Source: Bacilli bacterium (lineage in GTDB: Bacteria > Bacillota_I > Bacilli_A > RFN20 > CAG-826). Taken from it: a stretch of 64,000 nt of DNA. The stretch lies in assembly GCA_017445245.1 (NCBI GenBank), contig JAFSUM010000023.1:6115-70114 (forward strand), in the 5' to 3' direction. The position numbers and the translations under genes are program-made. Position 1 is the first letter of the stretch. Every line of letters starts with the position of its first letter. Below, piece after piece: positions 29,927 through 49,163 of the stretch. The notes below the pieces were generated by a model, which was not told where the DNA came from, did not search any database, and saw nothing but the letters and a program-made list of their open reading frames with translations.

Positions 29927-29949
29927 AAGCATACCTCCGAGTGTATTTT

Positions 29950-33563: not shown

Positions 33564-33627
33564 GAAATCGTTTTGTGTTGTTTTTTACATTTTGCGAAAT
33601 CGTTTTGTGTTGTTTTTTACATTTTGC
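33564..33627. repeat. Perfect 32-bp tandem duplication (GAAATCGTTTTGTGTTGTTTTTTACATTTTGC x2)
   Basis: Read directly at 33564-33595 and 33596-33627, immediately upstream of the next ATPase gene. Confidence 0.95.
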
Positions 33628-33661
33628 GAAGATGTGGTATGATTGGTTTGAGGCACGGAAC

Positions 33662-35089
33662 ATGGAGCAAACAATCGATTTAAAACGCAAGGCTTACAAG
33701 ATGCTCGAACATTGGAACGCCAATCCCGATAAAGTTCCTTTGATCGTGGATGGTCTTCGCCAAGTTGGAAAGAGTTATATCGTTGATAAGTTCGCCCGTG
33801 AGCATTATGAGAATGTCATCACTTATGACTTCCGCCACAACAAGGTATTGCGAAAGATCTTCGACGGTAACTTGGATGTTAACTCAATCATCATTAATTC
33901 CGCCCCCTACTTTCCCGACAAAGAGTTCGTACCGTTTAAGACGGTGCTGATCTTTGAAGAGATCGGCGACTGTCCGCTAGCAAGAACTTCTTTTAAAAGC
34001 TTTGCGTTAGACAAAAGGTTTTCTATCATCGCCACGGGCAGTTTGCTTGGTACCTTGAATTATCGTCGGAAGCAAAAAGCCGACATTCCCACCGGCTTCG
34101 AAGATACGCTAGAAATGTCCTCCCTCGACTTTGAAGAATTCCTTTGGGCAAATGGCGTCGAAGAGAAAAACATCGACGTTTTAAAGGGTTATACGGCACG
34201 AAAAGAAGAATTGCCACCCGCGCTTGCAGAATTTTATAAGGAAATGTTAAAGCGCTACGTCGTCGTCGGTGGAATGCCCGACGCCGTTAAGGATTTCCTA
34301 AAGACAAACAATTACGTGAAATCACGGCAAACACTGGAAGGCCTCATTCGGGACTACCGCGGTGATTTCGCCCGCTTTATTAACGACAAAGGCGAAGAGG
34401 AAATCGACTATCGTCTCCAAGCTCAACTAAACCAGATTCTAGACTCGATCCCCTCCCAGTTAGCCAGAGAAAGCGATACCCATAAATTCAAGTATTCAGA
34501 AGTCAAAAAGGGTGGAAGGTCTTCCGAGTTCCAAGAACCCTTCGATTGGTTGGAAAAAGCTGGTTTGGTTTTAAAATGTTCCAACCTGACCGCTATCGAA
34601 AAACCATTAGAAGCCAACGCGGATAAAACATCGTTCAAGGCTTTTATTTCCGATATCGGTTTATTGATGGCGATGTATCCTCTTTCAACATCGCAAGATT
34701 TTTTAAGAGACGAGCTCGATAGCCGAAAAGGGGCCATCTTTGAAAACCTCGCCGCGACGATGCTACATAAAGCCGGTTTCCCGCTTTACTATTTCTCAAA
34801 CGGAAACCAGCATTTGGAAATCGATTTTGTTTTTGAAGGCGATAAGGGCATCGTTTTATTAGAGGAGAAATCCGTAAACGGAAAGATGGCGGCCTCAAGA
34901 GCCGTCATGCAGGGCAAAACCCCTTATAAGGCAGAAGTATGCTACAAAGTCATCCGCAACAACTTCGGTCAAGGCGACTTCTATACCAGCGTCCCTCACT
35001 ATGCGGTGCCTTTCCTTTTGGAAGGCGTCGTCAAAGAACTCCAAAAAGGCATCGAACTAAAGCCCTTAGAATATCCAGGCGTGAATTAA
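33662..35089 (+). CDS. AAA_14 / DUF4143-type ATP-binding protein
   Basis: LIVDGLRQVGKSYIV Walker A, VLIFEEI Walker B and a C-terminal DUF4143-like HLEIDFVFE..LLEEKS block. ATG at 33662 (MEQTIDL) is preferred. Confidence 0.8.
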   Translation: MEQTIDLKRKAYKMLEHWNANPDKVPLIVDGLRQVGKSYIVDKFAREHYENVITYDFRHNKVLRKIFDGNLDVNSIIINSAPYFPDKEFVPFKTVLIFEEIGDCPLARTSFKSFALDKRFSIIATGSLLGTLNYRRKQKADIPTGFEDTLEMSSLDFEEFLWANGVEEKNIDVLKGYTARKEELPPALAEFYKEMLKRYVVVGGMPDAVKDFLKTNNYVKSRQTLEGLIRDYRGDFARFINDKGEEEIDYRLQAQLNQILDSIPSQLARESDTHKFKYSEVKKGGRSSEFQEPFDWLEKAGLVLKCSNLTAIEKPLEANADKTSFKAFISDIGLLMAMYPLSTSQDFLRDELDSRKGAIFENLAATMLHKAGFPLYYFSNGNQHLEIDFVFEGDKGIVLLEEKSVNGKMAASRAVMQGKTPYKAEVCYKVIRNNFGQGDFYTSVPHYAVPFLLEGVVKELQKGIELKPLEYPGVN

Positions 35090-35283: not shown

Positions 35284-37977
35284 TCATTCAGCGACTATTT
35301 TGGCCAAGACGGAAACCAAATCGGAAGCAATGGCCGGATCCTCTACGCGCAAAATCGTTTCCTCCTTCTGCCCGTACATAAAAGGATTCACGCCTCCGTA
35401 GTAGACGATTCGTTTATCGATTATCACCATGTTTGGAAGCTCGACAGAAACCCGTTTCGCCTCTAACGAATCAAGCGCAGGCGATTTCGCGCCGACATAA
35501 CAGGAATATGGACAGGCAAGTTTGTTCATCATAGAACGCAAGCGTGCCTCATGAAAATAGGAACAAGTGAGGAGGACGCTTTCTTTCGCGCCTTCCAAAT
35601 CGGAAAACAGGCGATCGCCGTAATCCTTTCCGGAAAGGATTTCGCTTCGATATTTCGCATCGGGGGCAACGACTTGGTACCCGAGTTGGAAATAGCCTTT
35701 CTCGCGTTCGCGGTACATCCTGGAGAACGCCGGCACCAAAGAGTCGACGTAATCGTAGACATCTACGTGCTTAATCGCGCCTTTCTTGCGTTGCAGACGC
35801 CCGCAATACTGGGCGAGTATTCCTTTCCAGCGGAACGGATAGGTAACGAAAAGGGCATTGAAGCGATGGTCATCGAAACCTTCGCCAATGTACTTACCGA
35901 TGGAAACGACAACGAAAGGATGCTCCCCGAACGCGGCGATTCTGTCTTCGTTCTCCTTTCGTTCCGCCTTCTCCTGTGCGCCATAAACAAGGGCGATTGA
36001 GGAAATTGACGGAGAAAGCAAATCATAGAGGATCCTGGCGTGCTTTATCTGTTCGGTTAGCAAAAGAACCGTCGAGCCCGCCTCAAAGGCTTCTTTGACA
36101 TCCGCGACGATGAGGCGATTCCTTTCTTTGTCGAGGATGGCTTCTTGGAAGAGGCCGGAAATATCCGTGCTACCCCGCGGGGAGGAGAATTTTGTAAAAC
36201 GCGGATGATAACGTTTGATGAAATCGCCCGTTTCTTTATCGACGTTGGCCTCGATGAGAGGTCCCACGGCATGAAAGACAAAGTCTTCGCGCTCGTCCGA
36301 TCTCTCCGGCGTAGCCGTTAGGCCATATAGGTATTTCGGCGCGATACTCCGCAACGCTTCTTCGAATTTAACCGCCCCCAGATGATGGACTTCGTCGACG
36401 ATGACCATGCCGTATTTCCGCGCGTTTTGACGGAAATCCTCGTTTCGGACCAGCGATTGGATAGTCGCGATATCTACGATACCCGTTCGTTTGTCGCCTT
36501 TTCCGGAAAGATAACCGATGCATTTTGTCGCATCCCCATCCTCGTATCGAAGATGTTCTATCAATTTGCTCTTCCATTGTTCCAACAACGTTATCGAAGG
36601 AACGAGAATCAGCGTATTGACTCTCTTTTTGGCCATCAAGGCGATCCCAAGGACGGTTTTGCCAAACCCAGTCGGGGCGGAAATGACGGCCGAATCGTGC
36701 TCTAACGCACGTTCGAGCAAGGTGGCCTGGTCTTCCCGTAACGAAGCGCCCAAAGAGAAATCGGCATATTCCCCACGGGTGAGAGAAGTGTTCACCACAT
36801 ATTGGATCCCCTTGGCTTTGAATAGCGTAAGCAAGGGTTCCTTATAGCCACGGGGCAAACGGAAGAAACGTTCGTCTTTCTTATAGCTGCATAGGAACCT
36901 TGGCACGTTGTGGAGGTTTCCCCGAATGGCCGATATCTTGTAATACTCCTTGTTCGGCATGCTCGTCAGTCGAATAAGAAACCGTTCGGAACGCGATGTC
37001 AGTTCGAGGTTCGGTATGAAGATATCGCCTGCGATATCAACGTGCACGACGGGGGCGAAATCATCTTTCGATAGAGGCATTTGCAACGCCTTCATCCCCA
37101 ATAGTCCGTGTTCCTCCATCCGAGCGGCAAAGCCGAGCAGTTCTTCGACTTTGCCTTTGGACACTTTCCGTATGGTGGAAAGGTACTTAATTTGTTCTTT
37201 GGCCACCGAGAAATCAGGCTTTAGGAAAACGGTGTTCCCCTCTTTGGCGAAATCGACGTTCAATGGAAGGGCGACGCAATTGCCAAAGCCGCCTTTTTCC
37301 ACTTTGTCTTGGTTTGGGAAGACGCGGTCGTAGGAATCGAGCCCAACTCCGCCAAACGTATCCATGGTCTTTGTCAAAACGTAATTGGCGATCTTCCACA
37401 CATCCGCGGCTTTGATTTTTTCTTCGAAGAAAACCCATACATGTATGCCATGCCCCGATTGCGAGCGTTCCATCAAGGGCATAATCGACAAGGAGCGCAA
37501 GGTCGCGCACAACTTCTTCGTATCCTCGAGATAAGAAGATTTATCCATATCGAAGACGAGCAACTTCACGTAATTGCCTTCCATGATGGGGTATAGACCC
37601 TTCATCTTGCGCTTGTCGAACATGTGCTCCAGGATGGCTTCGGCATCGAGGGTCTTGGGCGCGTAAGCCAGGCAATGCTTGCAATGGCTATTGCGGATGT
37701 CGCAGCCTCTTTCCTGCTTCCATTTGTTCTTGCAGGCGAGCGAATAGCCTTTCTTTCCGTTTGCGTTTTCGTAACGCTCGGCATAGGCATCTTCGCGGCC
37801 GACGAAATAATCCATGTAGATGGCGGTTTTGTCTTTCGCGCTATATTCGATATCCAGAAGCGGCAAGGTGTCCGTTTCTTCCATCGCTCCGTATTTCTCT
37901 TCGTATTTGGTTAATTGTTCGCGCAGACGATAAAGCTCCATGAGGAGTTCTTCTTTCGTCATCGCTTCATAAACCAT
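35284..37977 (-). CDS. Archaeo-eukaryotic primase (AEP)-like domain fused to an SF2 DEAD/DEAH helicase and a degenerate PLD-like C-terminus (TOTE-conflict-system-like)
   Basis: AEP motifs LLVFDMDK, SQSGHGIHVWVFF and GNCVALPL. Helicase motifs APTGFGKT, VIVDEVHHL, GLTATPER and QYCGRLQR. The C-terminus NMVIIDKRIVYYGGVNPF is PLD-like without HxK. Confidence 0.75.
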   Translation of the reverse strand: MVYEAMTKEELLMELYRLREQLTKYEEKYGAMEETDTLPLLDIEYSAKDKTAIYMDYFVGREDAYAERYENANGKKGYSLACKNKWKQERGCDIRNSHCKHCLAYAPKTLDAEAILEHMFDKRKMKGLYPIMEGNYVKLLVFDMDKSSYLEDTKKLCATLRSLSIMPLMERSQSGHGIHVWVFFEEKIKAADVWKIANYVLTKTMDTFGGVGLDSYDRVFPNQDKVEKGGFGNCVALPLNVDFAKEGNTVFLKPDFSVAKEQIKYLSTIRKVSKGKVEELLGFAARMEEHGLLGMKALQMPLSKDDFAPVVHVDIAGDIFIPNLELTSRSERFLIRLTSMPNKEYYKISAIRGNLHNVPRFLCSYKKDERFFRLPRGYKEPLLTLFKAKGIQYVVNTSLTRGEYADFSLGASLREDQATLLERALEHDSAVISAPTGFGKTVLGIALMAKKRVNTLILVPSITLLEQWKSKLIEHLRYEDGDATKCIGYLSGKGDKRTGIVDIATIQSLVRNEDFRQNARKYGMVIVDEVHHLGAVKFEEALRSIAPKYLYGLTATPERSDEREDFVFHAVGPLIEANVDKETGDFIKRYHPRFTKFSSPRGSTDISGLFQEAILDKERNRLIVADVKEAFEAGSTVLLLTEQIKHARILYDLLSPSISSIALVYGAQEKAERKENEDRIAAFGEHPFVVVSIGKYIGEGFDDHRFNALFVTYPFRWKGILAQYCGRLQRKKGAIKHVDVYDYVDSLVPAFSRMYREREKGYFQLGYQVVAPDAKYRSEILSGKDYGDRLFSDLEGAKESVLLTCSYFHEARLRSMMNKLACPYSCYVGAKSPALDSLEAKRVSVELPNMVIIDKRIVYYGGVNPFMYGQKEETILRVEDPAIASDLVSVLAKIVAE

Positions 37978-38268: not shown

Positions 38269-39423
38269 TCAATACAAATGCAGGAATTCTTCCGCGATAT
38301 GGGCTGTAGAGAACTTGTCCATGGCCTTATTCGCGATACTTGAACGGTCAACGTCCATAGACCGCTTTATTTCGAGAATCAGTTGATCGATATCCCCGTT
38401 ATCTACCGCCCCATAATCTTCGGGCGCGATAGATTCCGGCCCCCCTGCCTTGAATCCGCATACTGGGGTGCCGCAGCACAAGGATTCGGCGGTTGGCATC
38501 GAAAAGGATTCGAACTTGCTTAAGACGATCGTGACCTTCGCCTGTCGATAATACGAGGCGAGAAGCTTTTGGTCTGAGATATGGCCGACATCAATAATAC
38601 TGGAAGAGTCGAATCGTTCGTTACCAGAACCAGTCACCAGAAGGTCTAGACCCAATTCCTTTAGCCTTGCCCCTACCGCTTCGATCCATTGCCAGCCTTT
38701 GACTTCATTATGAACGGAGGTCGGAAAGAAAACATAAGGCCTATCGCGTAACGGTTTATCTAGACGACCGTCGGGATTGAATATCGCGATATCGACGGGA
38801 TTACAAACCGCATGGTTGTCCGCGTTTTCTAGTATCGAGGAACGCTCCGCCAAAAAAAGCAGCCAAGGGGAAACATACGAATGGCGAATCCAAGTTTTAT
38901 CTAGCCCTAACGAAGCAAGCTTTCTGTTCGTATGTCTAGAACAGTCCGGAGCAAACCCGAAGACTTCTTTCTTAAGAGGGCAGTCCCCGCATCCGCTTTG
39001 ATATTTATCGCAGAGGTTGATTCCGCATCCACCCGTAAACATAAGTTTCGCATGGTGCGTCAAAACAACCTTATACCCCTGCTTCCTTAACCATTTCATC
39101 AGCGAGAATACGTTGCACATGTTGCCATTAATCAAATGGACATGAACGACATCGGGGTTCAGTTTCTTTATATGCCTTTTTAGGTTCCACGTGCTTAAAG
39201 GCGAGCCACCCAAGTGGTTGCCGGTAAATAACTGGATGAACCTCCATAACTTGGCCTCCCATAGGAAACCGATACGCACGATACGCTTATCATCGCCTTT
39301 AGGCCCGCGCCCAAAGAAGACATGGCTATCATGCCCTTGGCGCATATATTCCTCGTGCAAGGCCTGGACGATCTTGCCGGTAGAACCGTGGCCGTAGATG
39401 ACGTTGATCTGAAGGATCTTCAT
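38269..39423 (-). CDS. Glycosyltransferase family 4 (GT-B)
   Basis: MKILQINVIYGHGSTGKIV start at 39423 and a C-terminal ESFSMPTAESLCCGTPV (EX7E-like) motif. Confidence 0.8.
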   Translation of the reverse strand: MKILQINVIYGHGSTGKIVQALHEEYMRQGHDSHVFFGRGPKGDDKRIVRIGFLWEAKLWRFIQLFTGNHLGGSPLSTWNLKRHIKKLNPDVVHVHLINGNMCNVFSLMKWLRKQGYKVVLTHHAKLMFTGGCGINLCDKYQSGCGDCPLKKEVFGFAPDCSRHTNRKLASLGLDKTWIRHSYVSPWLLFLAERSSILENADNHAVCNPVDIAIFNPDGRLDKPLRDRPYVFFPTSVHNEVKGWQWIEAVGARLKELGLDLLVTGSGNERFDSSSIIDVGHISDQKLLASYYRQAKVTIVLSKFESFSMPTAESLCCGTPVCGFKAGGPESIAPEDYGAVDNGDIDQLILEIKRSMDVDRSSIANKAMDKFSTAHIAEEFLHLY

Positions 39424-39679
39424 GATAGGGTCTATTGTACGGGTTTGGAGAAAAGGAAAGAAGACGCGAGAAAAAAGTCCAACGAAAAGCCACCGAAGTG
39501 GCGTTTTGCCAACTAGGAGAGCTGCCCTAGATCGCTTGACTCCGTCATGGACGAATCCATGGTGCCGTGGTCGAACGCTCATTTTCCTCCTTTGGCAATT
39601 AATTTCTAACGCAAACTGATCTACCAGTAAAGACCGTTAATAAATAGGCTCAGAAACCAACTATGTGTCAGATAAATCA

Positions 39680-40777
39680 CTAAACTAACACGGTATCGTC
39701 AATCCAAATGCTAAGATCGGAATCAATACTCGTTAGTCTCTTGGCGCATACCCCGCCCAATACTATCCCCACCGATGTAAGTTCGAAACTAGAAAAACCG
39801 TTTTTGTCGTAGAAATCCTCAAATTCTTTCCAGAAAGGGAAAACTTTGCACAAATCTGCACGCAGCGCGTCCACACTCATGACCTCTCGGTCATACTCTG
39901 CCAACAGGGCGGTAATCGTCTCGGCGCTGGCCTTTACTCTCTCAGCTTCCGCTTTAACCACTTCCTTTGTACACGGGACAATTCCTATTTGATCCCCATA
40001 TCGGCGAAAGCATCCCGGAACCTTTTCATATGTTGTGAGTCCCGATGCGTCCTTAGAAAATGAGTCAATCTTTTGAGGAACTAGGAGCGCCTCCGGATAA
40101 TCGGCCCTAACCCTATCGCAAATACCCCCGCCGCTGAATGCCGACCTGATGCCACATCCGGCATAAATTAGATGTTCAATATCTCCTCTGGACAACGTCT
40201 TGCAGGCTTCGTAGAGTGAACCCAATATTGAACCAAAAACAGCATATAATACCGTCTTATTTGGAATGTTCAAAAGCTTTGCCTTTGTGGTAATGAAAAC
40301 GAGGGCAAGAAAAGCAAAATGTTTTTTCCCGAGCAAGGGGCAAACCCTAATTGCTTCGCTGAGGGTAATTTGGAGGAGCGACCGACTTGGTTGGTTCATC
40401 CTTTTATCAAGCAAATCAGCTAGATTGTTTAGCAAATCATCACCGCCATATTTGATATAGCCCTCGTATGCCGTGTTAAAATCCGCCTGCATCGACGGGT
40501 CAGAAAGAACACGTCTAAACTCATCTCGCTCCCACTTTGCGGGATCACGCAATAAAAGGCCAACCAAACGTGAAGTAAGACTTTCTTCCCTTAGCTTGGC
40601 GACCTCTAGGGCTTCAAGCCTGTATTTGGAGATCTTTTCTTCCAATACGGTTTCAATAAGATTGCGAACTTGCTCTTCGGTTAATCCCTGGTGAATGTTG
40701 AGTGTCACGGGACCGTTAATGGTGCCTGCCTGCATTCCGGCGTTTTGCTCTGCTTCGTTTATGCTTTTATTTTTCAT
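39680..40777 (-). CDS. Uncharacterised protein, resembling from memory the family NCBI labels LPO_1073/Vpar_1526
   Basis: The N-terminus EQNAGMQAGTINGPVTLNIHQGLTEEQVRNLIETVL pattern matches my recollection of that family. ATG at 40777 is about 6 nt from AAGGTG and overlaps the end of the upstream small ORF. Confidence 0.45.
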   Translation of the reverse strand: MKNKSINEAEQNAGMQAGTINGPVTLNIHQGLTEEQVRNLIETVLEEKISKYRLEALEVAKLREESLTSRLVGLLLRDPAKWERDEFRRVLSDPSMQADFNTAYEGYIKYGGDDLLNNLADLLDKRMNQPSRSLLQITLSEAIRVCPLLGKKHFAFLALVFITTKAKLLNIPNKTVLYAVFGSILGSLYEACKTLSRGDIEHLIYAGCGIRSAFSGGGICDRVRADYPEALLVPQKIDSFSKDASGLTTYEKVPGCFRRYGDQIGIVPCTKEVVKAEAERVKASAETITALLAEYDREVMSVDALRADLCKVFPFWKEFEDFYDKNGFSSFELTSVGIVLGGVCAKRLTSIDSDLSIWIDDTVLV

Positions 40778-40964
40778 AGACATCACCTTGAACGAGACCC
40801 GCCATAAAGCCTGAGTTTGTTTTGGCGCGTAGATTAACATCTCTGAGCTCAGTTTTCAGTTTTTTAACTTCTGCTTTCGCTAAAAAAGCACCGATAGCAG
40901 ACACACATGCGGCTATCGCGCTAATGCCCGCAATAACTAAGGAGATGATTTCATAAAACGTCAT
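40767..40964 (-). CDS. Small single-pass membrane protein (65 aa)
   Basis: N-terminal TM helix IISLVIAGISAIAACVSAIGAFL followed by a charged helix. It starts 29 nt after the protease gene and overlaps the next gene. Confidence 0.5.
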   Translation of the reverse strand: MTFYEIISLVIAGISAIAACVSAIGAFLAKAEVKKLKTELRDVNLRAKTNSGFMAGLVQGDVYEK

Positions 40965-40993
40965 AGTTGCTCCTCCTAATCGAATCGGCCATC

Positions 40994-43261
40994 CTAGTCA
41001 TCGATACTTACATCGCCCTGCATTTGCAGATAGGTCCTGATCCTCGCATCGATATCGATGGTTGTAACCACCCAATTGTTCATGATGCATTCGTCGATGA
41101 AGCTTTGCAACCTATCCTTCCCTTTCAACTCACGCAACGTAATAACAATCCCGAAGGCCAGATCGTCAGACTCGGCATCGTCGACGAGTTGGCGTTCGTT
41201 GTGTTGCACCTCGATCCCCCATTTCTTCCCTTCGTAGCTCTTAAGTTCTTCCTTGTTCGAAGAGAACAGCAACTTTACCGTATCCCATTTACGGAAAAAC
41301 TTGCGCAGTTCACGCTCTCTTTTGCCGGATCCATCCGTCTCCTGAGAAAGTTTTCCGCTCTTAAGAGCGTCGATTTTCTCTTTGTCGGTAATACGGCCAA
41401 ATCGTAGGGCGAGCTCCGTGTCGGTATAGTCGATACCAGCGTTCCTATTTCCGCAAGAAAAGTAACACATCGTCGCCCGAGCGACGTATGGATATTTGGA
41501 AGACGAATCCTTTGGGACGGGAAGGCTATAGTTATACGTCTTGTACTCCTTTATCTTTCCATACACATAAAAACGGATTTCGTGGTTCTGGCACTGCAAG
41601 ATTTCCTCGATCGTCTTCGGAACGACCCCATAACCTAAATATGGATCTGGGGAGGCGGCGATTTCGCTATTCCAACCCGCCGCAGAGTCAATGATGAGCG
41701 CTTTGGCTATCTCCCTTGGAAACTTAAGGACGTCGATAAGATAACATGCCTTCCGGGCGATCCAAGGGGCAGCGGCGGATGTCCCGACAAAGAAATCTTC
41801 CTGATTGTTCCATCCGCAGGCAGTGCAAGATTCCACGCCATCCTCGCCGCCATAATAGCAAACGTCAGGCTTGGTGAAATTCGAAAGAACCGGACCATGC
41901 CTAGAATAAGATGTGCGCTGCTTTTTCCCATTCACCGAGCCCACAACTAGAGAGTTCAGAGAATCCGCAGGAGGCGCGATTGCTTGCGTTGATGGGCCAT
42001 GTTTGGTATCGCCATTGGTGCCAGCAACTATAAATAGACAGCTATTTTCCCTTTGAATTGCGTCCAGCGCAGCACCTTCATAGGAAATGAAACTTCGATT
42101 GATCTCCATGATGCCGCCTAACGATAGATTCCATACGTGAATGTCCTTGTTTTGCCTAACGATGGTTCTAATACGGTCGACTATTTTCGCAGAGTATGTT
42201 TTGCCCGAGGGCATGACGCCGAAATGCCGTACCCGAAATCTACCGCAGTGATCGTCAATTCCTGGGTTCAGGTTAGGCCCATCGACTATGATGGAGTCAA
42301 CCATAGTTCCATGATCGAAATCCTCGTCCTTAATAATATGTCCAACTGGATATTCATTGGTTGCCTCGACCCAACTAGCGAAATATGCTTTCTCGTCAAA
42401 AAATGTATCGATGACACCGATGGTTGGTTCGTCTCGAGGGCCGGGAATGGTACGCAAGGTTTTTGCGGGTTTGTCCATGCGGTCTAGCTTGCTTTCAAAA
42501 GAACCGGCAATTGACATTGCCACCAAATACGGGGCCAGCTCGACTAAGCGCTCATACTCCGCCGTCGGAAGGACGCAGCTCAATCCGCTGTCGTCCTCCA
42601 ACATGCTGCGGTCAAACCGAATGCGGAGGTAATCGAAAATGTCATCAAGAGTACGCTCGGTCTTATACATCGTCACCAAGCGATAAGGGTCATCGCAGAC
42701 TACGGGATGCGCTTGGGGCAGATCAAAGTGTCCTACATAATGTGCGTCTACGATTAATGCGCGAATATTCGTGCGAGCGAGGCCATATTTGGTTAGTACG
42801 TTCCCCTCGGCTGTCCCGTTGTTTGTATTGAAAACGTTCCTTGAGATAGAACCCTCGTGCTCCTGGTCTAAATAGTCCGCGCAAATGCGCAATTCCATGG
42901 CGGAATTCCGAATAACATCCATCGGGACGTAATAGGTAATAATGTGGCAGTCGTCCTCGGAAAAACGAGCGCCAACAATCAGACTGCTCGGCTTAATTTT
43001 GGATTGCCAAAACACGCGGCCGACCCTGTTACTTTTCGCTACCAAAGTCGTGTAATGGACGTCGATGAGTACATTCGCCAATAGAGGTGATCCTTTCCAG
43101 GAAACGCAAATCCGATCCAATTCATCCGCAAGGCGACGCACTTTATCTGACGTAACAAGCGCGCCAACCGGTAGAGTAAGTCCGCCGCCCTTTTGCTCGT
43201 TCGACTTGGGGTAGAACTCTCCTTTCAACTCGAGGAGGTTATGCATCTTTGTTGCCTCCAT
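40994..43261 (-). CDS. S8 (subtilisin-like) serine peptidase, IetS-like
   Basis: Catalytic triad blocks GVIDTFFD (Asp), DHGTMVDS (His) and GTSAAAPWIA (Ser). It overlaps the upstream AAA ATPase gene. Confidence 0.8.
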   Translation of the reverse strand: MEATKMHNLLELKGEFYPKSNEQKGGGLTLPVGALVTSDKVRRLADELDRICVSWKGSPLLANVLIDVHYTTLVAKSNRVGRVFWQSKIKPSSLIVGARFSEDDCHIITYYVPMDVIRNSAMELRICADYLDQEHEGSISRNVFNTNNGTAEGNVLTKYGLARTNIRALIVDAHYVGHFDLPQAHPVVCDDPYRLVTMYKTERTLDDIFDYLRIRFDRSMLEDDSGLSCVLPTAEYERLVELAPYLVAMSIAGSFESKLDRMDKPAKTLRTIPGPRDEPTIGVIDTFFDEKAYFASWVEATNEYPVGHIIKDEDFDHGTMVDSIIVDGPNLNPGIDDHCGRFRVRHFGVMPSGKTYSAKIVDRIRTIVRQNKDIHVWNLSLGGIMEINRSFISYEGAALDAIQRENSCLFIVAGTNGDTKHGPSTQAIAPPADSLNSLVVGSVNGKKQRTSYSRHGPVLSNFTKPDVCYYGGEDGVESCTACGWNNQEDFFVGTSAAAPWIARKACYLIDVLKFPREIAKALIIDSAAGWNSEIAASPDPYLGYGVVPKTIEEILQCQNHEIRFYVYGKIKEYKTYNYSLPVPKDSSSKYPYVARATMCYFSCGNRNAGIDYTDTELALRFGRITDKEKIDALKSGKLSQETDGSGKRERELRKFFRKWDTVKLLFSSNKEELKSYEGKKWGIEVQHNERQLVDDAESDDLAFGIVITLRELKGKDRLQSFIDECIMNNWVVTTIDIDARIRTYLQMQGDVSIDD

Positions 43262-44288
43262 TTAGCAATCTAGAAGCGCTGCTTTTAGAGATGCCGGTCA
43301 GCACTGTGACCTCGCGATTGGTAAAACCCATTCGAGCTAGCTTTGCAACATCGGATAAGGCCTCTTTGCCTAGCAATGCAACGAAAAGACGGCGAAGATG
43401 CTCGCTCCCGTTGCTTTCAGCGGAAAAAGCGATGGATCTTCGAATGATCTGCTTGATTTCGCCCGGATAGGGCAAAGAGGGCGCCGAGTCGAAGATTTTT
43501 GAGAGTATCTTGAGGTCGGATTTTGTATATGGGTAATCCTTAAGGACATCCTTATAGACTTCCTTAGCAATAGTGATCAAATCTTCACGCGAGTAACAGT
43601 CAAAATCCACCACCGCATCAAATCGGCGAAGGAGAGCTCTGTCAAAGGCAGTTTTCAAATTGCTAGTAGCGAAGAGCAAGATACCCGTACCTAATGAATC
43701 TAGTTCTTTTAAGAACGCAGTCGTCACACGCCCCATCTCGCGGAGATCATTGCTGTTAATCCTGTCTAAAACAATGGCGTCTATCTCGTCAAAAAGAACG
43801 ACGTATCTCGAAGCGGGAACCATCTTTATCTCGCGGAATAAGAGTTCGATGTTTTTCGCGGATTCGCCCAACTTGGAATCGATCAGCATAGAAAGATTAA
43901 CGGAGAGCACTTTCCTATCTAAAAACCTAGCGATTTGGATAATCGACTCTGTCTTCCCACTTCCAGGAGCACCAAGGAAAAGAAACTTATTTAAGTTCCT
44001 ATCCTTGCTGGCCGCATTAACTACGCCGGCGATTTCATCTTCTAACGCACTCGGAAAATATAGGGGTGACGTCGCCTGAGATAACTGAGTTAGATAATGT
44101 AGTTTCAACTCGGCCTCTTGCGGAACGAAAACACCACCTTCGGCAATAAGACTTGCGACGTAGACAGCAAGGTCCCTAAAACCTTCGCGATCGAATTCGG
44201 AGGCGATTTCATTTGCGGTTCTCTTAAAAGAGCGCTCGTCTTTTTCCGAGTGGTATTTAATTAAATCGACGATGAGCTGTTTCTTCAT
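43239..44288 (-). CDS. AAA+ ATPase, IetA-like
   Basis: Walker A GAPGSGKT, Walker B VVLFDEIDA and the arginine-finger region LLRRFD. A C-terminal HTH-like tail is present. Confidence 0.8.
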   Translation of the reverse strand: MKKQLIVDLIKYHSEKDERSFKRTANEIASEFDREGFRDLAVYVASLIAEGGVFVPQEAELKLHYLTQLSQATSPLYFPSALEDEIAGVVNAASKDRNLNKFLFLGAPGSGKTESIIQIARFLDRKVLSVNLSMLIDSKLGESAKNIELLFREIKMVPASRYVVLFDEIDAIVLDRINSNDLREMGRVTTAFLKELDSLGTGILLFATSNLKTAFDRALLRRFDAVVDFDCYSREDLITIAKEVYKDVLKDYPYTKSDLKILSKIFDSAPSLPYPGEIKQIIRRSIAFSAESNGSEHLRRLFVALLGKEALSDVAKLARMGFTNREVTVLTGISKSSASRLLNGGNKDA

Positions 44289-44383
44289 AACGCTTCCTCG
44301 TCATTATTATCAATCTTTTGGGACGCTTTTGTAAATAATGAAACACAATTAAAAATGATTCGTTGCATCCATTTCCAACGATT

Positions 44384-44725: not shown

Positions 44726-45670
44726 TTAGCGTGGCAACTCAGGCAAACAACGGGATATGGCGCCTTTAAAGCCAACCGCCCTCAAACGAGCAATTTTCTT
44801 CACACACTCGCCGCGCTTCTCTTCGAATTCGGAAAAATGAATCCGGACCATCTTCGTATTAATAGCGCTAAACAAGAATTGAAAATAAGGGAGGTCGGCA
44901 GAACCGATACCGCAGCCCAAACAATATATATCCGTAATTTTCCGGCTAAAAAGATCGCCGAAGAAAGCACCATGCCGCTCGATGGCTTTCTTTGTGTTTT
45001 TTCTTAAGGAGTCGTGGATGGCTTGCGCAGAATCACCATATATAAAATTGTGACATATTTCTTGTCCATAAGGACAGCCGTGCCCTATAATCAAATCTCC
45101 TTCCTCAATAGACCCGTGAATATGACAAACTCTGTTGGAACTGATGCCATAAATTTTCTCAAGTAGCATCGTGTAGTTGAATGTTAAGTAAAAACCAAAG
45201 GGGTCAAGCTGGTACTTCTTTTTGACATTTTGCGTATCAACGCTCTGAATCCACTCCAATAGCCGATCGGTAATAACCCAAGAGACACTCGTTCTGATGG
45301 AATCAGCCAAATCTTCAGCATCATAAATCCCATTAAAAGGGTGATCATCATCGAGTTCTTGAGAAATGTCGGAAAAAACACTGTCATAATCCAGTTCGCC
45401 TAATGCATCTTCTAGATCTGACCAAGTCTCACCCGAGTTCCAATCGAGCCACTCGATGAACAAACAAGCAGAACCCATTTCATCCACGATCACATCGCCA
45501 TGATGTCCGATAGCAACGTCCGGCACAGATAAATAGCCTCTAGGAAAATAATGGGTCGTTTTAACTAGATACTCTCTAAAATCAGAATATTTGGTGGGTA
45601 GGTTATGGCTTAGATCGAAGCCATTGCCGATGATATACAGATTGACTTGGTTATTTGATTGCTTTTTCAT
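44726..45670 (-). CDS. abiH: AbiH-family abortive-infection protein
   Basis: The N-terminal LYIIGNGFDLSHNLPTKYSDFREYL signature is typical of Pfam AbiH. ATG at 45670. Confidence 0.78.
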   Translation of the reverse strand: MKKQSNNQVNLYIIGNGFDLSHNLPTKYSDFREYLVKTTHYFPRGYLSVPDVAIGHHGDVIVDEMGSACLFIEWLDWNSGETWSDLEDALGELDYDSVFSDISQELDDDHPFNGIYDAEDLADSIRTSVSWVITDRLLEWIQSVDTQNVKKKYQLDPFGFYLTFNYTMLLEKIYGISSNRVCHIHGSIEEGDLIIGHGCPYGQEICHNFIYGDSAQAIHDSLRKNTKKAIERHGAFFGDLFSRKITDIYCLGCGIGSADLPYFQFLFSAINTKMVRIHFSEFEEKRGECVKKIARLRAVGFKGAISRCLPELPR

Positions 45671-45946
45671 GCAAATAATTATCAAGCGGTTTCCCAAAAA
45701 AGACGATGAGCAGGTGATACTTCCTTAAGAAAACTTGATGGACCGTGAACCGACAAACTAGAAGCATCGTGGCGTTGGCAATTCAGCCGGCATTAGTGAT
45801 CTAGGGGGAATGGGCCACCACCATTCCGTGTCATGAAAGCCTGAAACTAAGACAATAGGCATCACAAGTAATCGCCTAGGCAGGACAGTTGCGGCGAAAC
45901 TCCAGGATTGCGGGGTGCCAGCCCGTGCGAAAAGCACGGATTTCCA

Positions 45947-47242
45947 TTAAGCATTTTGGACGGTTTCCAGGAATAGTTGTCTGAAGAAATCCAGCTTGCT
46001 TTCTTGCCCAAAGTTTTTGAATGCGCCAATGACATCATCCACGTATGACTCAAATTGAAAGCCACTAAAATATTTCTCTTTGTTAAGTGATTTGATAAAT
46101 GACGCAATATTCTTGTACGTTACAAACTGGTATATACCCTTCATTTCCGTTTCTATCTCGGCCTCTATTTCTTCTTTTCGGAAATCAGGGCAGACGATGA
46201 TGCACAAGCATCTTGATGCGCCTCCTTGGGAGGCCCAACCATAATAAACGGATAGCTGCGTTGACTTTTTTGTGCCATCCCCTCCATGCAAGCCACTCCA
46301 AATCTTGTTTTCAATTACGACCCTAAGATCCTCGTTATAGGCGCAGAGATCCGTCCGACCGCCCTTGTTGTTGTCACGCCCTGCAATAGGCAATTCTCTG
46401 CGAACCGCGAATTCAGTTTCGGTAGCCTGCCCTTGTCCGCCGAACTTTTCGACAAAGCGATTCATCGTCTTTTTCCATTCCAAAATTTTGTAGAGCATGT
46501 TCGTATAGCAGGTTTCACTATCTCTCTTCAAAATCAAGTCTAAAAAAGTTCTCTTAAGTGGGGGTGACGCGTATTTTTTGTTCTCCACTCGCTTAATTTT
46601 GGTCGTGATATCGGTCCAATAAATTAAACTGGTATATTTTCCCAATTCAGTAAAAGCTTCGTGATTAGCGTCAGAAAACACATATCCCTTGTTTCTTTGG
46701 TATCGGTATCCCGGTGTGGAAACAATAATTTTCTTCTTCGCTTTATATATTTCGCTGGCCTCGAACGTCACATATAGCGATCTGTCATTGTTCCCGTAGA
46801 TTCGATAAAGACGTTTGCCGGCATAATCGATTTCCTCGTTATCTATTATTTGTTTAATCTTGTCTTGCGATGCCTTTAATTTGTCATCCTCCCGATGCGC
46901 GGATTCGTGGTGAAGGCATCTGCAAATCTTGATTAGGTGGGTAAGTTCAAAAGATGATACTGTCTCCCCGTTCCTTTTCCGGATAGTCGCCTTTTTGGTC
47001 AAGAACATATACTCCAAATTGTATTTGTTGTTCCCATCCGTTCCGATGTTAGTAGGACAATGACCAAATGAGTTGTTGTAAACATAGATTTTGTCATTAT
47101 CTGCTCGAAAAAAATCGATGATTTCATGAGCGATACGATCGCCTTTATCCGCGTAGCCTCCTTCAAAGGGCTTATTCAAAATAAAAACTTTCTCGTTTTT
47201 TCCCATAGCTTTACTCGCAAAGAAGTATATCATTCGCGCCAA
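45947..47242 (-). CDS. Protein with a C-terminal PD-(D/E)xK nuclease domain (PDDEXK_4-like) and an unrecognised ~280-aa N-terminal region
   Basis: GGRTDLCAYNEDLRVVIENKIWSG (D...ExK) followed by TQLSVYYGW. The start is uncertain: TTG at 47242, or ATG at 47233 or 47206. Confidence 0.55.
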   Translation of the reverse strand: MARMIYFFASKAMGKNEKVFILNKPFEGGYADKGDRIAHEIIDFFRADNDKIYVYNNSFGHCPTNIGTDGNNKYNLEYMFLTKKATIRKRNGETVSSFELTHLIKICRCLHHESAHREDDKLKASQDKIKQIIDNEEIDYAGKRLYRIYGNNDRSLYVTFEASEIYKAKKKIIVSTPGYRYQRNKGYVFSDANHEAFTELGKYTSLIYWTDITTKIKRVENKKYASPPLKRTFLDLILKRDSETCYTNMLYKILEWKKTMNRFVEKFGGQGQATETEFAVRRELPIAGRDNNKGGRTDLCAYNEDLRVVIENKIWSGLHGGDGTKKSTQLSVYYGWASQGGASRCLCIIVCPDFRKEEIEAEIETEMKGIYQFVTYKNIASFIKSLNKEKYFSGFQFESYVDDVIGAFKNFGQESKLDFFRQLFLETVQNA

Positions 47243-47392
47243 TGCGTGTTCCCCAAATATTTGGTTTTTGGTTATGGAATGTTCCCTTCGCCAAAAACGC
47301 TCAAAGTCACTGGTCGTGTGGTTCTTTATCCAACACCTATTTTTCAGGGTCTGCTAATAGAACCATAGGAGTATTTACAAAACGGATGATGA

Positions 47393-47842
47393 TTAGCCCA
47401 CGCGGTATCGGTCCTTTACCTTGAAACTGGCCTTCGTCTGGAAGCAATACGATTCCAGAAGGTCGATCCTTTCCTCGATTCCGTCATCCCTCGCGGAGGA
47501 TTTGAAAGCTATCCACGCCGCGTAGATCCCGAGATATTCGGTCCTGACGCCGACGTGGCACCTGAGGAAGCGCTTCAGCTCGGAGATGAAGGAATTGACG
47601 GGCCGGAGGCTCGCCATCTTCCTGAACCGTTCCCGGTCCGGCTTCATCGACGACATCGCCGTCGACATGGACGCCCCGAACGAACGGCGCGGGAGTTGCG
47701 CAGGCGCCTGCCCTCGACCCCCTTGACGGTTTCGCCCGATCCGCAGAATGGGCATTCGCTTCCGCGCATAAAGAAAACCTCTCGGGCAAGAGGATCCGGG
47801 CGGCATGGCCCAAGAGGTCATCGCCAAACGATCCCCACCCAT
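47393..47842 (-). pseudogene. Degraded IS1595-family-like transposase remnant
   Basis: The C-terminal block VNSFISELKRFLRCHVGVRTEYLGIYAAWIAF and the GGRGQA segment resemble IS1595 transposases. The catalytic core is missing and the reading frames are broken. The segment is visibly more GC-rich than its flanks. Confidence 0.4.
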
Positions 47843-47951
47843 GCCACGCAGATCCCGGATTGCTTGGCTCGGTTATTCCAGCACACGGGCGAAAAGGGCT
47901 TAATTTCTATCACCCTTTTGTAAGTACTCCTATTAGGCTTTGTTAATTACT

Positions 47952-47979
47952 TTGCAACCCACGTTTCCTTGATTAGAAT
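47952..47979 (+). promoter_or_regulatory. SigA-type promoter upstream of the retron module
   Basis: TTGCAA at 47952-47957, a 16-nt spacer, then TAGAAT at 47974-47979. Confidence 0.5.
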
Positions 47980-47985
47980 AGAAAT

Positions 47986-48147
47986 GCCCTATTTTTTGGT
48001 GAAAACCACCAAGGTTTGTGCAAGCAAACCTCGAAACCCATCTTGGGTATTGTGGCGACCGAACTCGTCCTTTCACGCTCGGGCGACCAGGAGAGCCTCC
48101 TGCCCGTCCGAGCGCTCACGCCGACTTCAGTCGCCATCTCGTAGGGC
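47986..48147 (+). ncRNA. Candidate retron msr-msd non-coding RNA
   Basis: Three short hairpins at 47996-48012, 48013-48030 and 48036-48048. An 84-nt GC-rich imperfect hairpin at 48053-48136 has outer stem TGGCGAC/GTCGCCA and tip AGGAG-AGC-CTCCT. It is bracketed by the complementary hexamers GCCCTA (47986-91) and TAGGGC (48142-47). Confidence 0.45.
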
Positions 48148-48152
48148 TTCAA

Positions 48153-49163
48153 ATGAAATACGCTAGCGAGTTTTTGACAAGAGGTCTCCTTCTTGAGACG
48201 AAATACCGCAAAAAAGATTTTTCTTATGGAAAAGGAAAATATTTGGAATTCGTCTTTTTGTGTGGAAAAGCGAGTCAACCGAATGACAACCGCGATCAAC
48301 TAACAAGAAAAATCATTGAGAAACAAACCTTCCGTTATTCCCTTTATTCTGAAAAAACGTTCCACGCTTTTACTTCTTCTGGTTTGGACTTGCTAACAGT
48401 TGAAGAGGTGCTCGCCGACATCAGTTCTAAGATTGTAATAATCGTTGAGAGTTATGGATCAGCGTGTGAATTGGGGGCGTTCTCCCTGCTGGATGACGGC
48501 CTATCAAAGTTGCTGGTCATTAACGATATTAAGCACAAAGGTGAAAATTCATTTATTGAACTGGGGCCGTTAACGAAAATACGGAGGAAGACCTTGGACA
48601 AAGGGGTGCTGTATGAGTCTTTTACAGGGGAGGATATTTGTTTTTCGCCTGGATTGGTTAATTCCATAGATGAGATTCGAAGGAGTGGATTCAAAAGGAA
48701 AATTTTCACTGAGGAACCAGAGGTCGAGCCAAGACAAATGGCAATAAATGATTTAGCTTGTCTAACTTGTCTTGTTTTTGAGTATGTGGTTCGGTTTGGT
48801 TATTTGCGAAAGAGCAATGTTCTAAATGCGGTAAACTGGCTGGCCCAAAACGTAAATGAGCTCCCTCTTGTTGCGCGCCTCTCCTCGAATAATATGCTAG
48901 ACGAATCCGAAACGCGGGAAGCAGTTTACGCAATACCTGTGATCTTGACTGAATTAGGCCTTTTTGCTACGGCTGATCATCGGGGAGAATCTTATTACCG
49001 CTTGGGCACGAGAATAAGCAATGATCATCCCGTTGATCTAAACAGGCTATCCGGTCTAATTTTTCATGGGATCTTTTCTCGTTCTACAGAGATTCGCAAA
49101 CTGACGAGCAAAATCCGAAATTGCGCTTGCAAAGAAGGTTTCCAGTTATGGGAAGAAGCTTGA
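48153..49163 (+). CDS. Retron effector, nucleoside 2-deoxyribosyltransferase-like (Ec73 / St85-RcaT-type)
   Basis: FVFLCGKA and IIVESYGSACELGAFS resemble the NDT-like Rossmann core. It lies between the ncRNA candidate and the RT and overlaps the RT start. The track's extension from 48018 runs through the structured RNA region. Confidence 0.55.
   Translation: MKYASEFLTRGLLLETKYRKKDFSYGKGKYLEFVFLCGKASQPNDNRDQLTRKIIEKQTFRYSLYSEKTFHAFTSSGLDLLTVEEVLADISSKIVIIVESYGSACELGAFSLLDDGLSKLLVINDIKHKGENSFIELGPLTKIRRKTLDKGVLYESFTGEDICFSPGLVNSIDEIRRSGFKRKIFTEEPEVEPRQMAINDLACLTCLVFEYVVRFGYLRKSNVLNAVNWLAQNVNELPLVARLSSNNMLDESETREAVYAIPVILTELGLFATADHRGESYYRLGTRISNDHPVDLNRLSGLIFHGIFSRSTEIRKLTSKIRNCACKEGFQLWEEA

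What the first reader, a model, noticed from the sequence alone, without database searches (positions are those of the whole stretch)
39680..44288. IetAS-like ATPase/subtilase pair extended by a small TM protein and an uncharacterised 365-aa protein
An AAA+ ATPase (GAPGSGKT, DEID) overlaps an S8 protease with an intact Asp/His/Ser triad. This is the two-gene IetAS architecture reported in the Gao et al. 2020 defence screen. Here, 29 nt after the protease, a 65-aa single-pass membrane protein follows. It overlaps a 365-aa protein whose N-terminus (NAGMQAGTINGPVTLNIHQGLTEEQV...) recalls the uncharacterised LPO_1073/Vpar_1526 family. Either this is a four-gene IetAS variant, in which the TM protein could be a protease-released effector, or it is a separate two-gene module that has not been characterised.
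Basis: partly seen in the sequence, partly recalled or inferred. Interest (0 to 1): 0.62.

Follow-up and report, generated by a model that had tools for sequence, protein, structure and literature searches.

The report
IetAS operon carrying a separate two-gene module
The four genes are real and probably one transcript, but they are two independent modules: an ordinary IetAS-like ATPase/protease pair, and a widespread uncharacterised "small membrane protein + Vpar_1526" cassette that looks like an unnamed anti-phage system.

Summary
All four minus-strand genes exist as described. They are IetA-like AAA+ (43239-44288), IetS-like S8 protease with an intact triad (40994-43261), a 65-aa single-pass membrane protein (40767-40964) and a 365-aa LPO_1073/Vpar_1526 protein (39680-40777). 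PADLOC IetA/IetS models hit (2.8e-33, 3.1e-63). NCBIfam NF045477 hits the last gene at 149.5 bits (cut-off 45).

Comparative genomics separates the block into two modules.
- The small-TM + Vpar_1526 pair recurs without IetAS in every relative that is not a near-identical copy: 79 of 80 genome loci, about 32 of 35 metagenome loci, an E. coli P2-like defence hotspot and a phage lysis region.
- Its neighbours are unrelated from locus to locus.
- Six IetS relatives at 42-56% identity carry only AAA+S8.

In this lineage the two modules share one promoter-to-terminator block, which is kept in an 81%-identical relative.

Natural fusions (1-TM::Vpar, 2-TM::Vpar, Cap5-type HNH::Vpar) suggest Vpar_1526 is a sensor or regulator driving a swappable effector. 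Its AlphaFold model is confident (pLDDT 90) and matches nothing in PDB or BFVD. No paper or PADLOC model covers it.

The IetAS part is ordinary. The downstream cassette is the interesting part, a candidate new abortive-infection system.

The parts
44306..44335 (-). Sigma-70-like promoter candidate (TTTACA-18 nt-GATAAT) about 20 nt upstream of the IetA start codon. It is the only promoter-like site found for the four-gene block.
   Evidence: scan; the hexamers are conserved in L001, and homology with L001 begins just upstream of this site. No transcript data exist.
43239..44288 (-). IetA-like AAA+ ATPase, 349 aa. Walker A starts at residue 106 and Walker B at residue 165. The C-terminus looks like a helix-turn-helix.
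   Evidence: PADLOC IetA 2.8e-33, residues 15-342; PF00004 1e-20; IteA 98 bits, below the equivalog cut-off of 510.
40994..43261 (-). IetS-like S8 serine protease, 755 aa (750 aa from the alternative start at 43246). Triad D285/H317/S495. The N-terminal ~265 aa are not covered by the IetS profiles.
   Evidence: PADLOC IetS 3.1e-63, residues 267-742; PF00082 3.7e-29; 4800 relatives at E<=1e-20.
40767..40964 (-). 65-aa single-pass membrane protein, the presumed membrane effector or anchor of the cassette. Its C-terminal tail (..KTNSGFMAGLVQGDVYEK) is a divergent form of the family tail motif.
   Evidence: Homologous small TM ORFs stand in front of Vpar_1526 genes in L089-L097. Analogous ones occur in 79 of 80 genome loci.
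39680..40777 (-). LPO_1073/Vpar_1526 family protein, 365 aa. The first ~33 residues are disordered and carry a motif like the TM tail. The rest is an all-alpha domain of unknown fold. Presumed sensor or regulator.
   Evidence: NF045477 149.5 bits; PF28206; 940 clusters; pLDDT 90.1, pTM 0.83; no structural match.
39486..39619 (-). Conserved 3' untranslated element ending in an intrinsic terminator. The hairpin GCCACTTCGGTGGC plus T-run lies at 39489-39502. This marks the end of the block shared with L001.
   Evidence: 90.6% identity against 79.5% for the whole block; no Rfam match; found only in copies of this block.

Best explanation
The locus is a composite operon made of two autonomous modules that have been joined head to tail inside a defence island.

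Module 1 is a divergent IetAS-like pair. By analogy with published IetAS, the AAA+ ATPase restrains a toxic S8 protease until infection. This is inferred, and the IetAS mechanism itself is unsolved.

Module 2 is a self-contained two-gene cassette. It consists of a small membrane protein translationally coupled to a cytosolic Vpar_1526 protein. I propose that Vpar_1526 is the sensor or regulator. I propose that the small membrane protein is the effector, which damages the membrane on activation and so aborts infection.

The two proteins probably associate through a short motif (QKSG-D/N-NSTNIQ..G) that appears both in the tail of the membrane protein and at the disordered N-terminus of Vpar_1526.

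What is shown:
- gene anatomy and family membership;
- the cassette's independence from IetAS across genomes;
- conserved coupling of the two cassette genes;
- natural fusions;
- a confident fold with no match.

What is inferred:
- anti-phage function;
- which partner is sensor and which is effector;
- membrane damage as the effector action;
- co-transcription of the four genes.
For: Autonomy of module 2:
- In the genome scan, 79 of 80 loci from many phyla carry a 1- or 2-TM ORF in front of the Vpar_1526 gene. In 78 of them it ends within 30 nt of the Vpar_1526 start. In 72 the tail motif is present.
- None of the 80 has IetA or IetS.
- The 143 nearest neighbouring ORFs are almost all unrelated to one another.
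- Window-clade relatives at ~30% identity (L089-L097) have a small TM protein homologous to the window's and no IetAS.

Autonomy of module 1:
- Six of six IetS relatives at 42-56% identity are AAA+S8 only.
- L130 shows no remnant of the pair.

Defence context:
- The window island holds PDC-S01, a TOTE AEP-helicase, AbiH and a retron II-A.
- The E. coli copy sits between the replication gene and the portal gene of a P2-like element, next to genes matching PADLOC Hp1/Hp2.
- L006 sits among GmrSD, an NgoFVII-type enzyme and OLD+UvrD genes.
- Neighbours elsewhere include PIN, HEPN, Fic, AbiLi, AriA, Old, GajA and restriction-modification genes.

Sensor/effector logic:
- Fusions exist as 1-TM::Vpar, 2-TM::Vpar and HNH::Vpar.
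- The HNH part matches the N-terminal nuclease of Cap5-type HNH-SAVED effectors (5.8e-17 to 3e-10).
- The single genome locus lacking a TM ORF (L084) is itself an HNH-like fusion.

Single transcription unit:
- The gap before the small gene is 29 nt, with no promoter or terminator hit.
- The block shared with L001 runs from the promoter-like site to the terminator.

Other:
- The family namesake protein was detected in membrane-enriched fractions of V. parvula (PMC5491611, Table 1).
Against: - No experiment shows anti-phage activity for any Vpar_1526 family member.
- Many neighbours in other genomes are housekeeping genes, so enrichment in defence islands is qualitative and not quantified.
- The four genes are co-inherited as one promoter-to-terminator block in the only moderately diverged relative available (L001). 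Functional cross-talk with IetAS in this lineage therefore cannot be excluded.
- The sensor/effector assignment rests on domain-swap logic alone.
- The window's own small protein has only a weak version of the tail motif.
- No RNA-seq data exist to confirm co-transcription.
Confidence: 0.6

Rival explanations
1. Integrated four-gene IetAS variant. The small membrane protein, or the disordered N-terminus of Vpar_1526, is a substrate of the IetS protease. It is released or activated on infection, so all four genes are needed for one function.
For: - The four genes lie between one promoter-like site and one terminator, with a 29-nt gap and overlapping genes.
- The whole block is conserved as a unit in L001 while both flanks differ.
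- IetAS is known to recruit extra essential components, such as ietHAS with a helicase (PMC13069673).
Against: - The pair occurs without any S8 protease or IetA in more than 110 loci, including the window's own clade.
- IetS relatives at 42-56% identity lack the pair.
- The association is seen only in near-identical copies and one 81%-identical relative.
Confidence: 0.1
2. The TM + Vpar_1526 pair is a toxin-antitoxin or addiction module, or a prophage membrane module for superinfection exclusion or lysis timing. It is not an infection-sensing defence system. Vpar_1526 simply neutralises a small hydrophobic toxin.
For: - The architecture, a small hydrophobic protein translationally coupled to a larger soluble partner, resembles membrane-toxin TA pairs.
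- One copy sits beside a phage holin and amidase (L008).
- Copies lie near integrases, resolvase/Tn3 genes and at the ends of viral contigs.
- PIN, HEPN and Fic neighbours are TA-rich surroundings.
Against: - HNH::Vpar fusions, with a Cap5-type nuclease in place of the TM module, fit a regulated effector better than a simple antitoxin.
- Covalent TM::Vpar fusions are hard to reconcile with a labile-antitoxin mechanism.
- Placement in the P2 hotspot and in defence islands points to defence.
Confidence: 0.15
3. The roles are reversed. Vpar_1526 is the effector, for example a conditionally membrane-active helical protein. The N-terminal partner (TM helix or HNH-like domain) only localises it to the membrane or to DNA.
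For: - Vpar_1526 has two moderately hydrophobic helices (Kyte-Doolittle ~1.5 at residues 145-172 and 327-350).
- The L084 HNH-like domain lacks the usual HH pair.
- The V. parvula protein co-fractionates with membranes.
Against: - Three HNH fusions keep the CHI...N...HH catalytic pattern and match active Cap5 nucleases.
- The Vpar_1526 domain has no conserved catalytic-looking residue set, and its hydrophobic helices are part of a confidently folded globular model.
Confidence: 0.12

Closest known systems
IetAS (Gao_Iet; AAA+ ATPase IetA + S8 protease IetS; first described as a plasmid-stabilising toxin-antitoxin pair)
   Same: Genes 1 and 2 have the same two-gene architecture with overlapping ORFs. 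PADLOC IetA and IetS models hit. The Walker motifs and the Asp/His/Ser triad are intact.
   Different: NCBIfam equivalog cut-offs are far from met. The N-terminal ~265 aa of the protease lie outside the IetS profiles. Two further genes follow in the same transcription unit.
ietHAS (IetAS with an essential SNF2 helicase; PMC13069673)
   Same: It is a precedent for IetAS operons that carry extra genes in a non-canonical configuration.
   Different: There the extra gene is a helicase shown to be required. Here the extra genes are an autonomous cassette found elsewhere without IetAS.
CBASS effectors Cap5 (HNH-SAVED) and Cap14 (2TM-SAVED). The names and architectures come from my own knowledge; the PDB depositors call the matched chains 'HNH endonuclease' or 'SAVED domain-containing protein'.
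   Same: The effector repertoire is the same: a Cap5-type HNH nuclease or 1-2 TM helices, placed N-terminal to a regulatory domain. The HNH of the Vpar fusions matches Cap5-type chains at 5.8e-17 to 3e-10.
   Different: The regulatory domain is Vpar_1526, not SAVED, and has no detectable fold similarity to any solved structure. No cyclase or any other conserved partner gene is nearby. In most loci the TM part is a separate gene.
Rst_3HP and other P2-hotspot defence cargo (Rousset et al. 2022; the system name is from my own knowledge)
   Same: The E. coli copy of the cassette sits in the same P2-like variable region, directly beside genes matching PADLOC Hp1/Hp2.
   Different: The cassette itself matches no PADLOC v2.0 model. 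It has not, to my knowledge, been tested.

Membership tests
IetAS (Gao_Iet) | An AAA+ ATPase matching IetA models | tested here: met
   PADLOC PDLC02196 IetA 2.8e-33, covering residues 15-342 of 349. NCBIfam IteA scores 98 bits, below the equivalog cut-off of 510, so it is a divergent member.
IetAS (Gao_Iet) | An S8 serine protease matching IetS models, with an intact catalytic triad | tested here: met
   PADLOC PDLC02197 IetS 3.1e-63. D285/H317/S495 and the oxyanion Asn motif are present. NCBIfam IteS scores 158 bits against a cut-off of 900. The N-terminal 265 aa are not covered.
IetAS (Gao_Iet) | The two genes are adjacent, co-oriented, and in the order ATPase then protease | tested here: met
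   They overlap by 23 nt, or 8 nt from the alternative start. The same arrangement is seen in 6 of 6 relatives examined.
IetAS (Gao_Iet) | Protease-dependent anti-phage activity, or toxin-antitoxin behaviour | not testable with these tools
   This needs expression and phage challenge.
LPO_1073/Vpar_1526 family (NCBIfam NF045477, Pfam PF28206) | Score above the curated family cut-off over the whole domain | tested here: met
   149.5 bits against a cut-off of 45, residues 52-380 of the 386-aa ORF against profile positions 1-257 of 257. PF28206 is precomputed for the identical protein.
Small-TM + Vpar_1526 cassette (defined here, not a named family) | A 60-110 aa ORF with 1-2 TM helices that ends within about 30 nt of, or overlaps, the Vpar_1526 start | tested here: met
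   In the window the overlap is 11 nt and there is one TM helix. The feature holds in 78-79 of 80 genome loci.
Small-TM + Vpar_1526 cassette (defined here, not a named family) | The tail motif QKSG(D/N)NSTN(I/Y)Q.GGD(I/V) in the TM protein, echoed at the Vpar_1526 N-terminus | tested here: inconclusive
   The window tail ..KTNSGFMAGLVQGDVYEK and the Vpar N-terminus ..EQNAGMQAGTINGPVTLNIHQGL are only loosely similar to the consensus. The consensus is present in 72 of 79 tails, and in 47 of 80 N-termini by a strict pattern.
CBASS (Cap5/Cap14-type effector systems) | A CD-NTase cyclase together with an effector that has a signal-binding domain (SAVED or similar) | tested here: not met
   No conserved partner gene of any kind lies next to the cassette. 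The Vpar_1526 model has no SAVED-like or other structural match. The cassette works like such an effector but is not a member.

The most novel reading that the evidence does not exclude
The small-TM + Vpar_1526 cassette is a new, widespread, stand-alone family of anti-phage abortive-infection systems. The family has about 940 clusters at 50% identity across many bacterial phyla, and it is also carried by P2-like and other prophages. In this reading Vpar_1526 is a sensor domain of a previously unseen fold. It detects infection directly and drives interchangeable effectors: a membrane helix encoded as a separate or fused gene, or a Cap5-type HNH nuclease. Here it has been wired into an IetAS operon, possibly giving layered or synergistic protection.
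Probability: 0.45. Interest if true: 0.75.

Novelty: new variant of a known kind. Interest (0 to 1): 0.6.

Why it matters
The IetAS half adds nothing new. The downstream half points to a large protein family that is catalogued only by name in NCBIfam and Pfam.

The family nevertheless shows hallmarks of a defence system. Its two genes are tightly coupled, its genomic neighbourhoods vary, and copies sit in prophage hotspots and defence islands. Its partner effector also swaps with a nuclease domain that matches those of solved Cap5-type (HNH-SAVED) proteins.

If confirmed, it would add a new sensor fold to bacterial immunity. It would also give a compact two-gene system, with an E. coli-native copy, in which to study how a soluble sensor controls a minimal membrane effector.

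Finally, the locus is a natural example of two defence modules fused into one transcription unit, which bears on how composite systems such as ietHAS arise.

Tried and rejected
- **Word-indexed homologue search.** Searching with the Vpar_1526 protein and then with its alignment found only 2 and 7 proteins. The exhaustive HMMER search was needed.
- **Locus search with broad alignments.** Narrower sub-alignments A3 and A5 worked.
- **Literature.** Searches for LPO_1073, Vpar_1526, PF28206, NF045477, the E. coli protein accessions and the PHROG ids found only a V. parvula proteome table.
- **Sequence search of solved structures.** The Vpar_1526 profile gave only chance-level hits.
- **Structure search.** Foldseek of the confident model against PDB and BFVD gave nothing below E = 0.04, with TM-scores of 0.2 or less.
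- **Defence and phage family libraries.** PADLOC does not match Vpar_1526. PHROGs matches only families of unknown function. The N-terminus of some small TM proteins matches PDC-M43A weakly.
- **RNA-seq for operon structure.** Only gut-metagenome DNA runs hold the locus. No RNA run was listed.
- **Remnant search.** No trace of the pair lies downstream of the 56%-identical IetS in L130.
- **Taxonomy of the window.** Cluster look-up returned no names. The organism remains unidentified, apart from coming from a gut metagenome.
- **Rfam on the conserved 3' element.** No match.
- **Phage collection.** tblastn of a phage-borne relative against INPHARED gave no match.
- **Considered and not run.** A concatenated TM+Vpar AlphaFold model was not run, because a single-chain hairpin between adjacent motifs would not test an inter-chain contact.
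Full report
**1. Observation**

The region holds four co-oriented minus-strand ORFs exactly as described.
- The first (43239-44288, 349 aa) has Walker A GAPGSGKT and Walker B LFDEID. It matches Pfam AAA (1e-20) and PADLOC IetA (2.8e-33 over residues 15-342).
- The second (40994-43261, 755 aa) overlaps the first by 23 nt, or by 8 nt from the start that gene callers use. It matches Peptidase_S8 (3.7e-29) and PADLOC IetS (3.1e-63, residues 267-742). It keeps D285, H317, S495 and the oxyanion Asn motif.
- The third starts 29 nt after the IetS stop, behind an AGGAGGA ribosome-binding site. It encodes a 65-aa protein with one strongly hydrophobic helix.
- The fourth starts at an ATG that overlaps the last 11 nt of the third. 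It encodes 365 aa (39680-40777) and scores 149.5 bits on NCBIfam NF045477 'LPO_1073/Vpar_1526 family', whose cut-off is 45. The collection's precomputed Pfam label is PF28206 Vpar_1526.

**2. Surroundings**

The block lies in a dense defence island:

| Coordinates | Strand | Gene |
|---|---|---|
| 33575-35089 | + | PDC-S01-type ATPase |
| 35284-37977 | - | TOTE-type AEP primase-helicase |
| 38269-39582 | - | Glycosyltransferase |
| 44726-45697 | - | AbiH |
| 45947-47242 | - | Unknown, 431 aa |
| 48018-50158 | + | Retron type II-A pair (NDT + RT) |

The sequence comes from a gut metagenome organism that I could not name.

**3. Is the downstream pair part of IetAS?**

I tested co-occurrence in both directions.

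*Forward, starting from Vpar_1526.*
- An exhaustive HMMER search found 940 clusters (at 50% identity) of Vpar_1526 relatives, mostly 345-360 aa.
- A genome scan with a sub-alignment returned 80 loci from many phyla.
- In 79 of the 80, a small ORF with one or two hydrophobic helices precedes the Vpar_1526 gene. In 78 it ends within 30 nt of the Vpar_1526 start. In 72 it carries the C-terminal motif QKSG(D/N)NSTN(I/Y)Q.GGD(I/V).
- None of the 80 loci encodes anything resembling the window's IetA or IetS.
- The 143 nearest flanking ORFs are almost all unrelated to one another; only three two-member clusters appeared. They range from housekeeping genes to PIN, HEPN, Fic, AbiLi, AriA, Old, GajA, restriction-modification genes and integrases.
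- A metagenome scan with the window's own clade gave 41 loci.
- The ~30%-identical relatives L089-L097 have a small protein clearly homologous to the window's (..SAIAAIGAKNEVKKLK..). Again there is no IetAS. Their neighbours are a methylase-like pair, or an HTH regulator plus an integrase.
- Three individually inspected loci show the same pair without IetAS:
  - In a P2-like E. coli element it lies between the replication gene and the portal gene, next to genes matching PADLOC Hp1/Hp2.
  - In a second locus it lies in an island with GmrSD, an NgoFVII-type enzyme and OLD+UvrD genes.
  - In a third it lies beside a phage holin and amidase.

*Reverse, starting from IetS.*
- The window's IetS has about 4800 relatives at E <= 1e-20.
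- Six relatives at 42-56% identity all have the AAA gene upstream and unrelated genes downstream.
- The closest of these (56%, L130) shares island genes with the window's relative L001, yet has no trace of the pair.

The pair is therefore an autonomous cassette, and IetAS is an autonomous pair. The association is confined to near-identical copies (L002-L004) and one 81%-identical relative (L001).

**4. How the two modules are joined here**

- Nucleotide comparison with L001 shows one 4.9-kb homologous block, window 44358 to 39485, at 79.5% identity.
- The block begins just upstream of a conserved sigma-70-like site, TTTACA-18-GATAAT at 44335-44306.
- It ends exactly at a conserved GC hairpin plus T-run at 39502-39489.
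- No promoter-like or terminator-like site separates IetS from the small gene.
- Both flanks differ between the two genomes. AbiH is absent upstream in L001. The glycosyltransferase is absent between the block and the TOTE gene.

The four genes thus look like one transcription unit that is inherited as a unit. This is inferred from sequence signals only, because no RNA data exist. It is compatible with two independent systems sharing a promoter. It leaves a small possibility of functional cross-talk.

**5. What the cassette probably does**

- The AlphaFold model of Vpar_1526, built with a 60-sequence alignment, is confident (mean pLDDT 90.1, pTM 0.83). The first ~33 residues are disordered, a 43-residue helix follows, and the rest is a compact, mostly helical domain.
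- Foldseek finds nothing comparable in PDB or BFVD (best E 0.6 and 0.04, TM-scores 0.2 or less). A profile search of PDB sequences is also empty.
- The alignment shows no obvious catalytic residue set.
- The disordered N-terminus carries the same motif as the tail of the small membrane protein.
- Several family members are natural fusions:
  - a 1-TM module joined to Vpar_1526 (P0011, P0050, P0065, P0075, P0104);
  - a 2-TM module joined to Vpar_1526 (P0045, P0059);
  - an HNH domain joined to Vpar_1526 (P0095, P0110, P0122).
- The HNH domain matches the N-terminal nuclease of Cap5-type HNH-SAVED proteins at 5.8e-17 to 3e-10. Pfam HNH_2 hits it only below threshold.
- The one genome locus without a small TM ORF (L084) turns out to be an HNH-like::Vpar_1526 fusion.

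A membrane module and a defence nuclease therefore occupy the same position, and in these data they are mutually exclusive. This is the pattern of a constant sensor or regulator with swappable effectors. From my own knowledge, it parallels SAVED with Cap5 (HNH) and Cap14 (2TM). Because no other gene is conserved nearby, the sensor would have to detect infection directly.

I therefore propose an abortive-infection mechanism. Vpar_1526 is held at the membrane by the small protein through the shared motif. On sensing infection it changes state. The TM helices then assemble and compromise the membrane, or, in the fusion variants, the HNH cuts DNA. All of this is inference.

One piece of weak independent support exists. 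The V. parvula protein with the locus tag that names the family was detected in whole-cell, outer-membrane-enriched and surface fractions (PMC5491611, Table 1).

**6. Comparison with known systems**

- Genes 1-2 meet the PADLOC definition of IetAS but not the NCBIfam equivalog cut-offs. I file them as a divergent IetAS-like member.
- The published record states that the IetAS anti-phage mechanism is unknown. It also states that a helicase-extended variant, ietHAS, exists (PMC13069673).
- Genes 3-4 belong to the catalogued but uncharacterised Vpar_1526 family.
- No PADLOC v2.0 model covers that family. PHROGs lists it as phrog_19542, and the small protein as phrog_27656, both of unknown function.
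- No paper in the searchable library mentions it beyond the proteome table.
- It works like a Cap5/Cap14-type effector but is not a CBASS member. There is no cyclase, no SAVED domain and no structural similarity.

**7. Verdict**

Of its two interpretations, the separate uncharacterised two-gene module is supported. The protease-released effector idea is not.

The IetAS part is ordinary. The cassette is a credible candidate for a new defence family with a new sensor fold, and here it is wired into an IetAS operon.

Noticed in passing
window 39486-39619 (minus strand): A 134-nt stretch after the Vpar_1526 stop is 90.6% identical to L001, against 79.5% for the coding block and ~60% for the 60 nt just before it. 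It contains two short hairpins whose indels fall in the loops, plus the terminator hairpin, both with UUCG-type loops. It also contains an RBS-like AAAGGAGGAAAATG. It has no Rfam match and occurs only in copies of this block.
   Followed up: partly
window 38269-39582 (minus strand): The GT4-family glycosyltransferase lies between the four-gene block and the TOTE gene, and it is absent at that position in L001. The listed ORF start (39582) runs through the upstream terminator. The real start is probably the MKILQINV... Met near 39423.
   Followed up: partly
window 35284-37977 (minus strand): An 897-aa TOTE-type archaeo-eukaryotic primase fused to a DEAD/ResIII helicase, with a C-terminal region. 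It is conserved next to the block in L001 at 74% nucleotide identity.
   Followed up: no
window 48018-50158 (plus strand), upstream region ~47250-48017: A retron type II-A pair: an NDT-like effector (PADLOC NDT_II-A 1.4e-32) and a reverse transcriptase (RT_II-A 2.5e-62). The expected msr/msd non-coding RNA was not picked up by Rfam at gathering threshold.
   Followed up: no
window 44726-45697 and 45947-47242 (minus strand): An AbiH-family gene (Pfam 2.2e-52) is followed upstream by a 431-aa protein with no match in Pfam, PADLOC, PHROGs or NCBIfam. This may be another uncharacterised island gene.
   Followed up: partly
window 33575-35089 (plus) and 28868-29932 (minus): A PDC-S01-type AAA_14/DUF4143 ATPase (PADLOC 2.8e-119), and a 354-aa KAP/STAND-like P-loop protein. 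These are further defence-candidate genes flanking polysaccharide genes (Wzy_C, Bac_transf).
   Followed up: no
window 50370-51212 (plus strand): In the identical contig L002, the gene at the equivalent position is labelled PF20016 ThsA_Macro by the collection's precomputed hits. This suggests a Thoeris-like or Macro-domain gene beside the retron.
   Followed up: no
L084:359-1792; proteins P0095, P0110, P0122: These are fusions of a Cap5-type HNH nuclease domain to the Vpar_1526 domain. L084 has a variant HNH lacking the usual HH pair and has no small TM gene upstream.
   Followed up: partly
L006:7804-8001 and L010:9823-10008: The N-terminal 'NKEWxFSGxG' TM module of many small cassette proteins weakly matches the N-terminus of the PADLOC candidate PDC-M43A (about 1e-6). 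This hints at a TM module shared between defence candidates.
   Followed up: no
window 43239-43400 (IetA C-terminus, residues ~320-345): The IetA-like ATPase ends in a helix-turn-helix-like segment (REVTVLTGISKSSASRLLNGG). It lies within the region covered by the PADLOC IetA profile, so it is probably a family feature.
   Followed up: no
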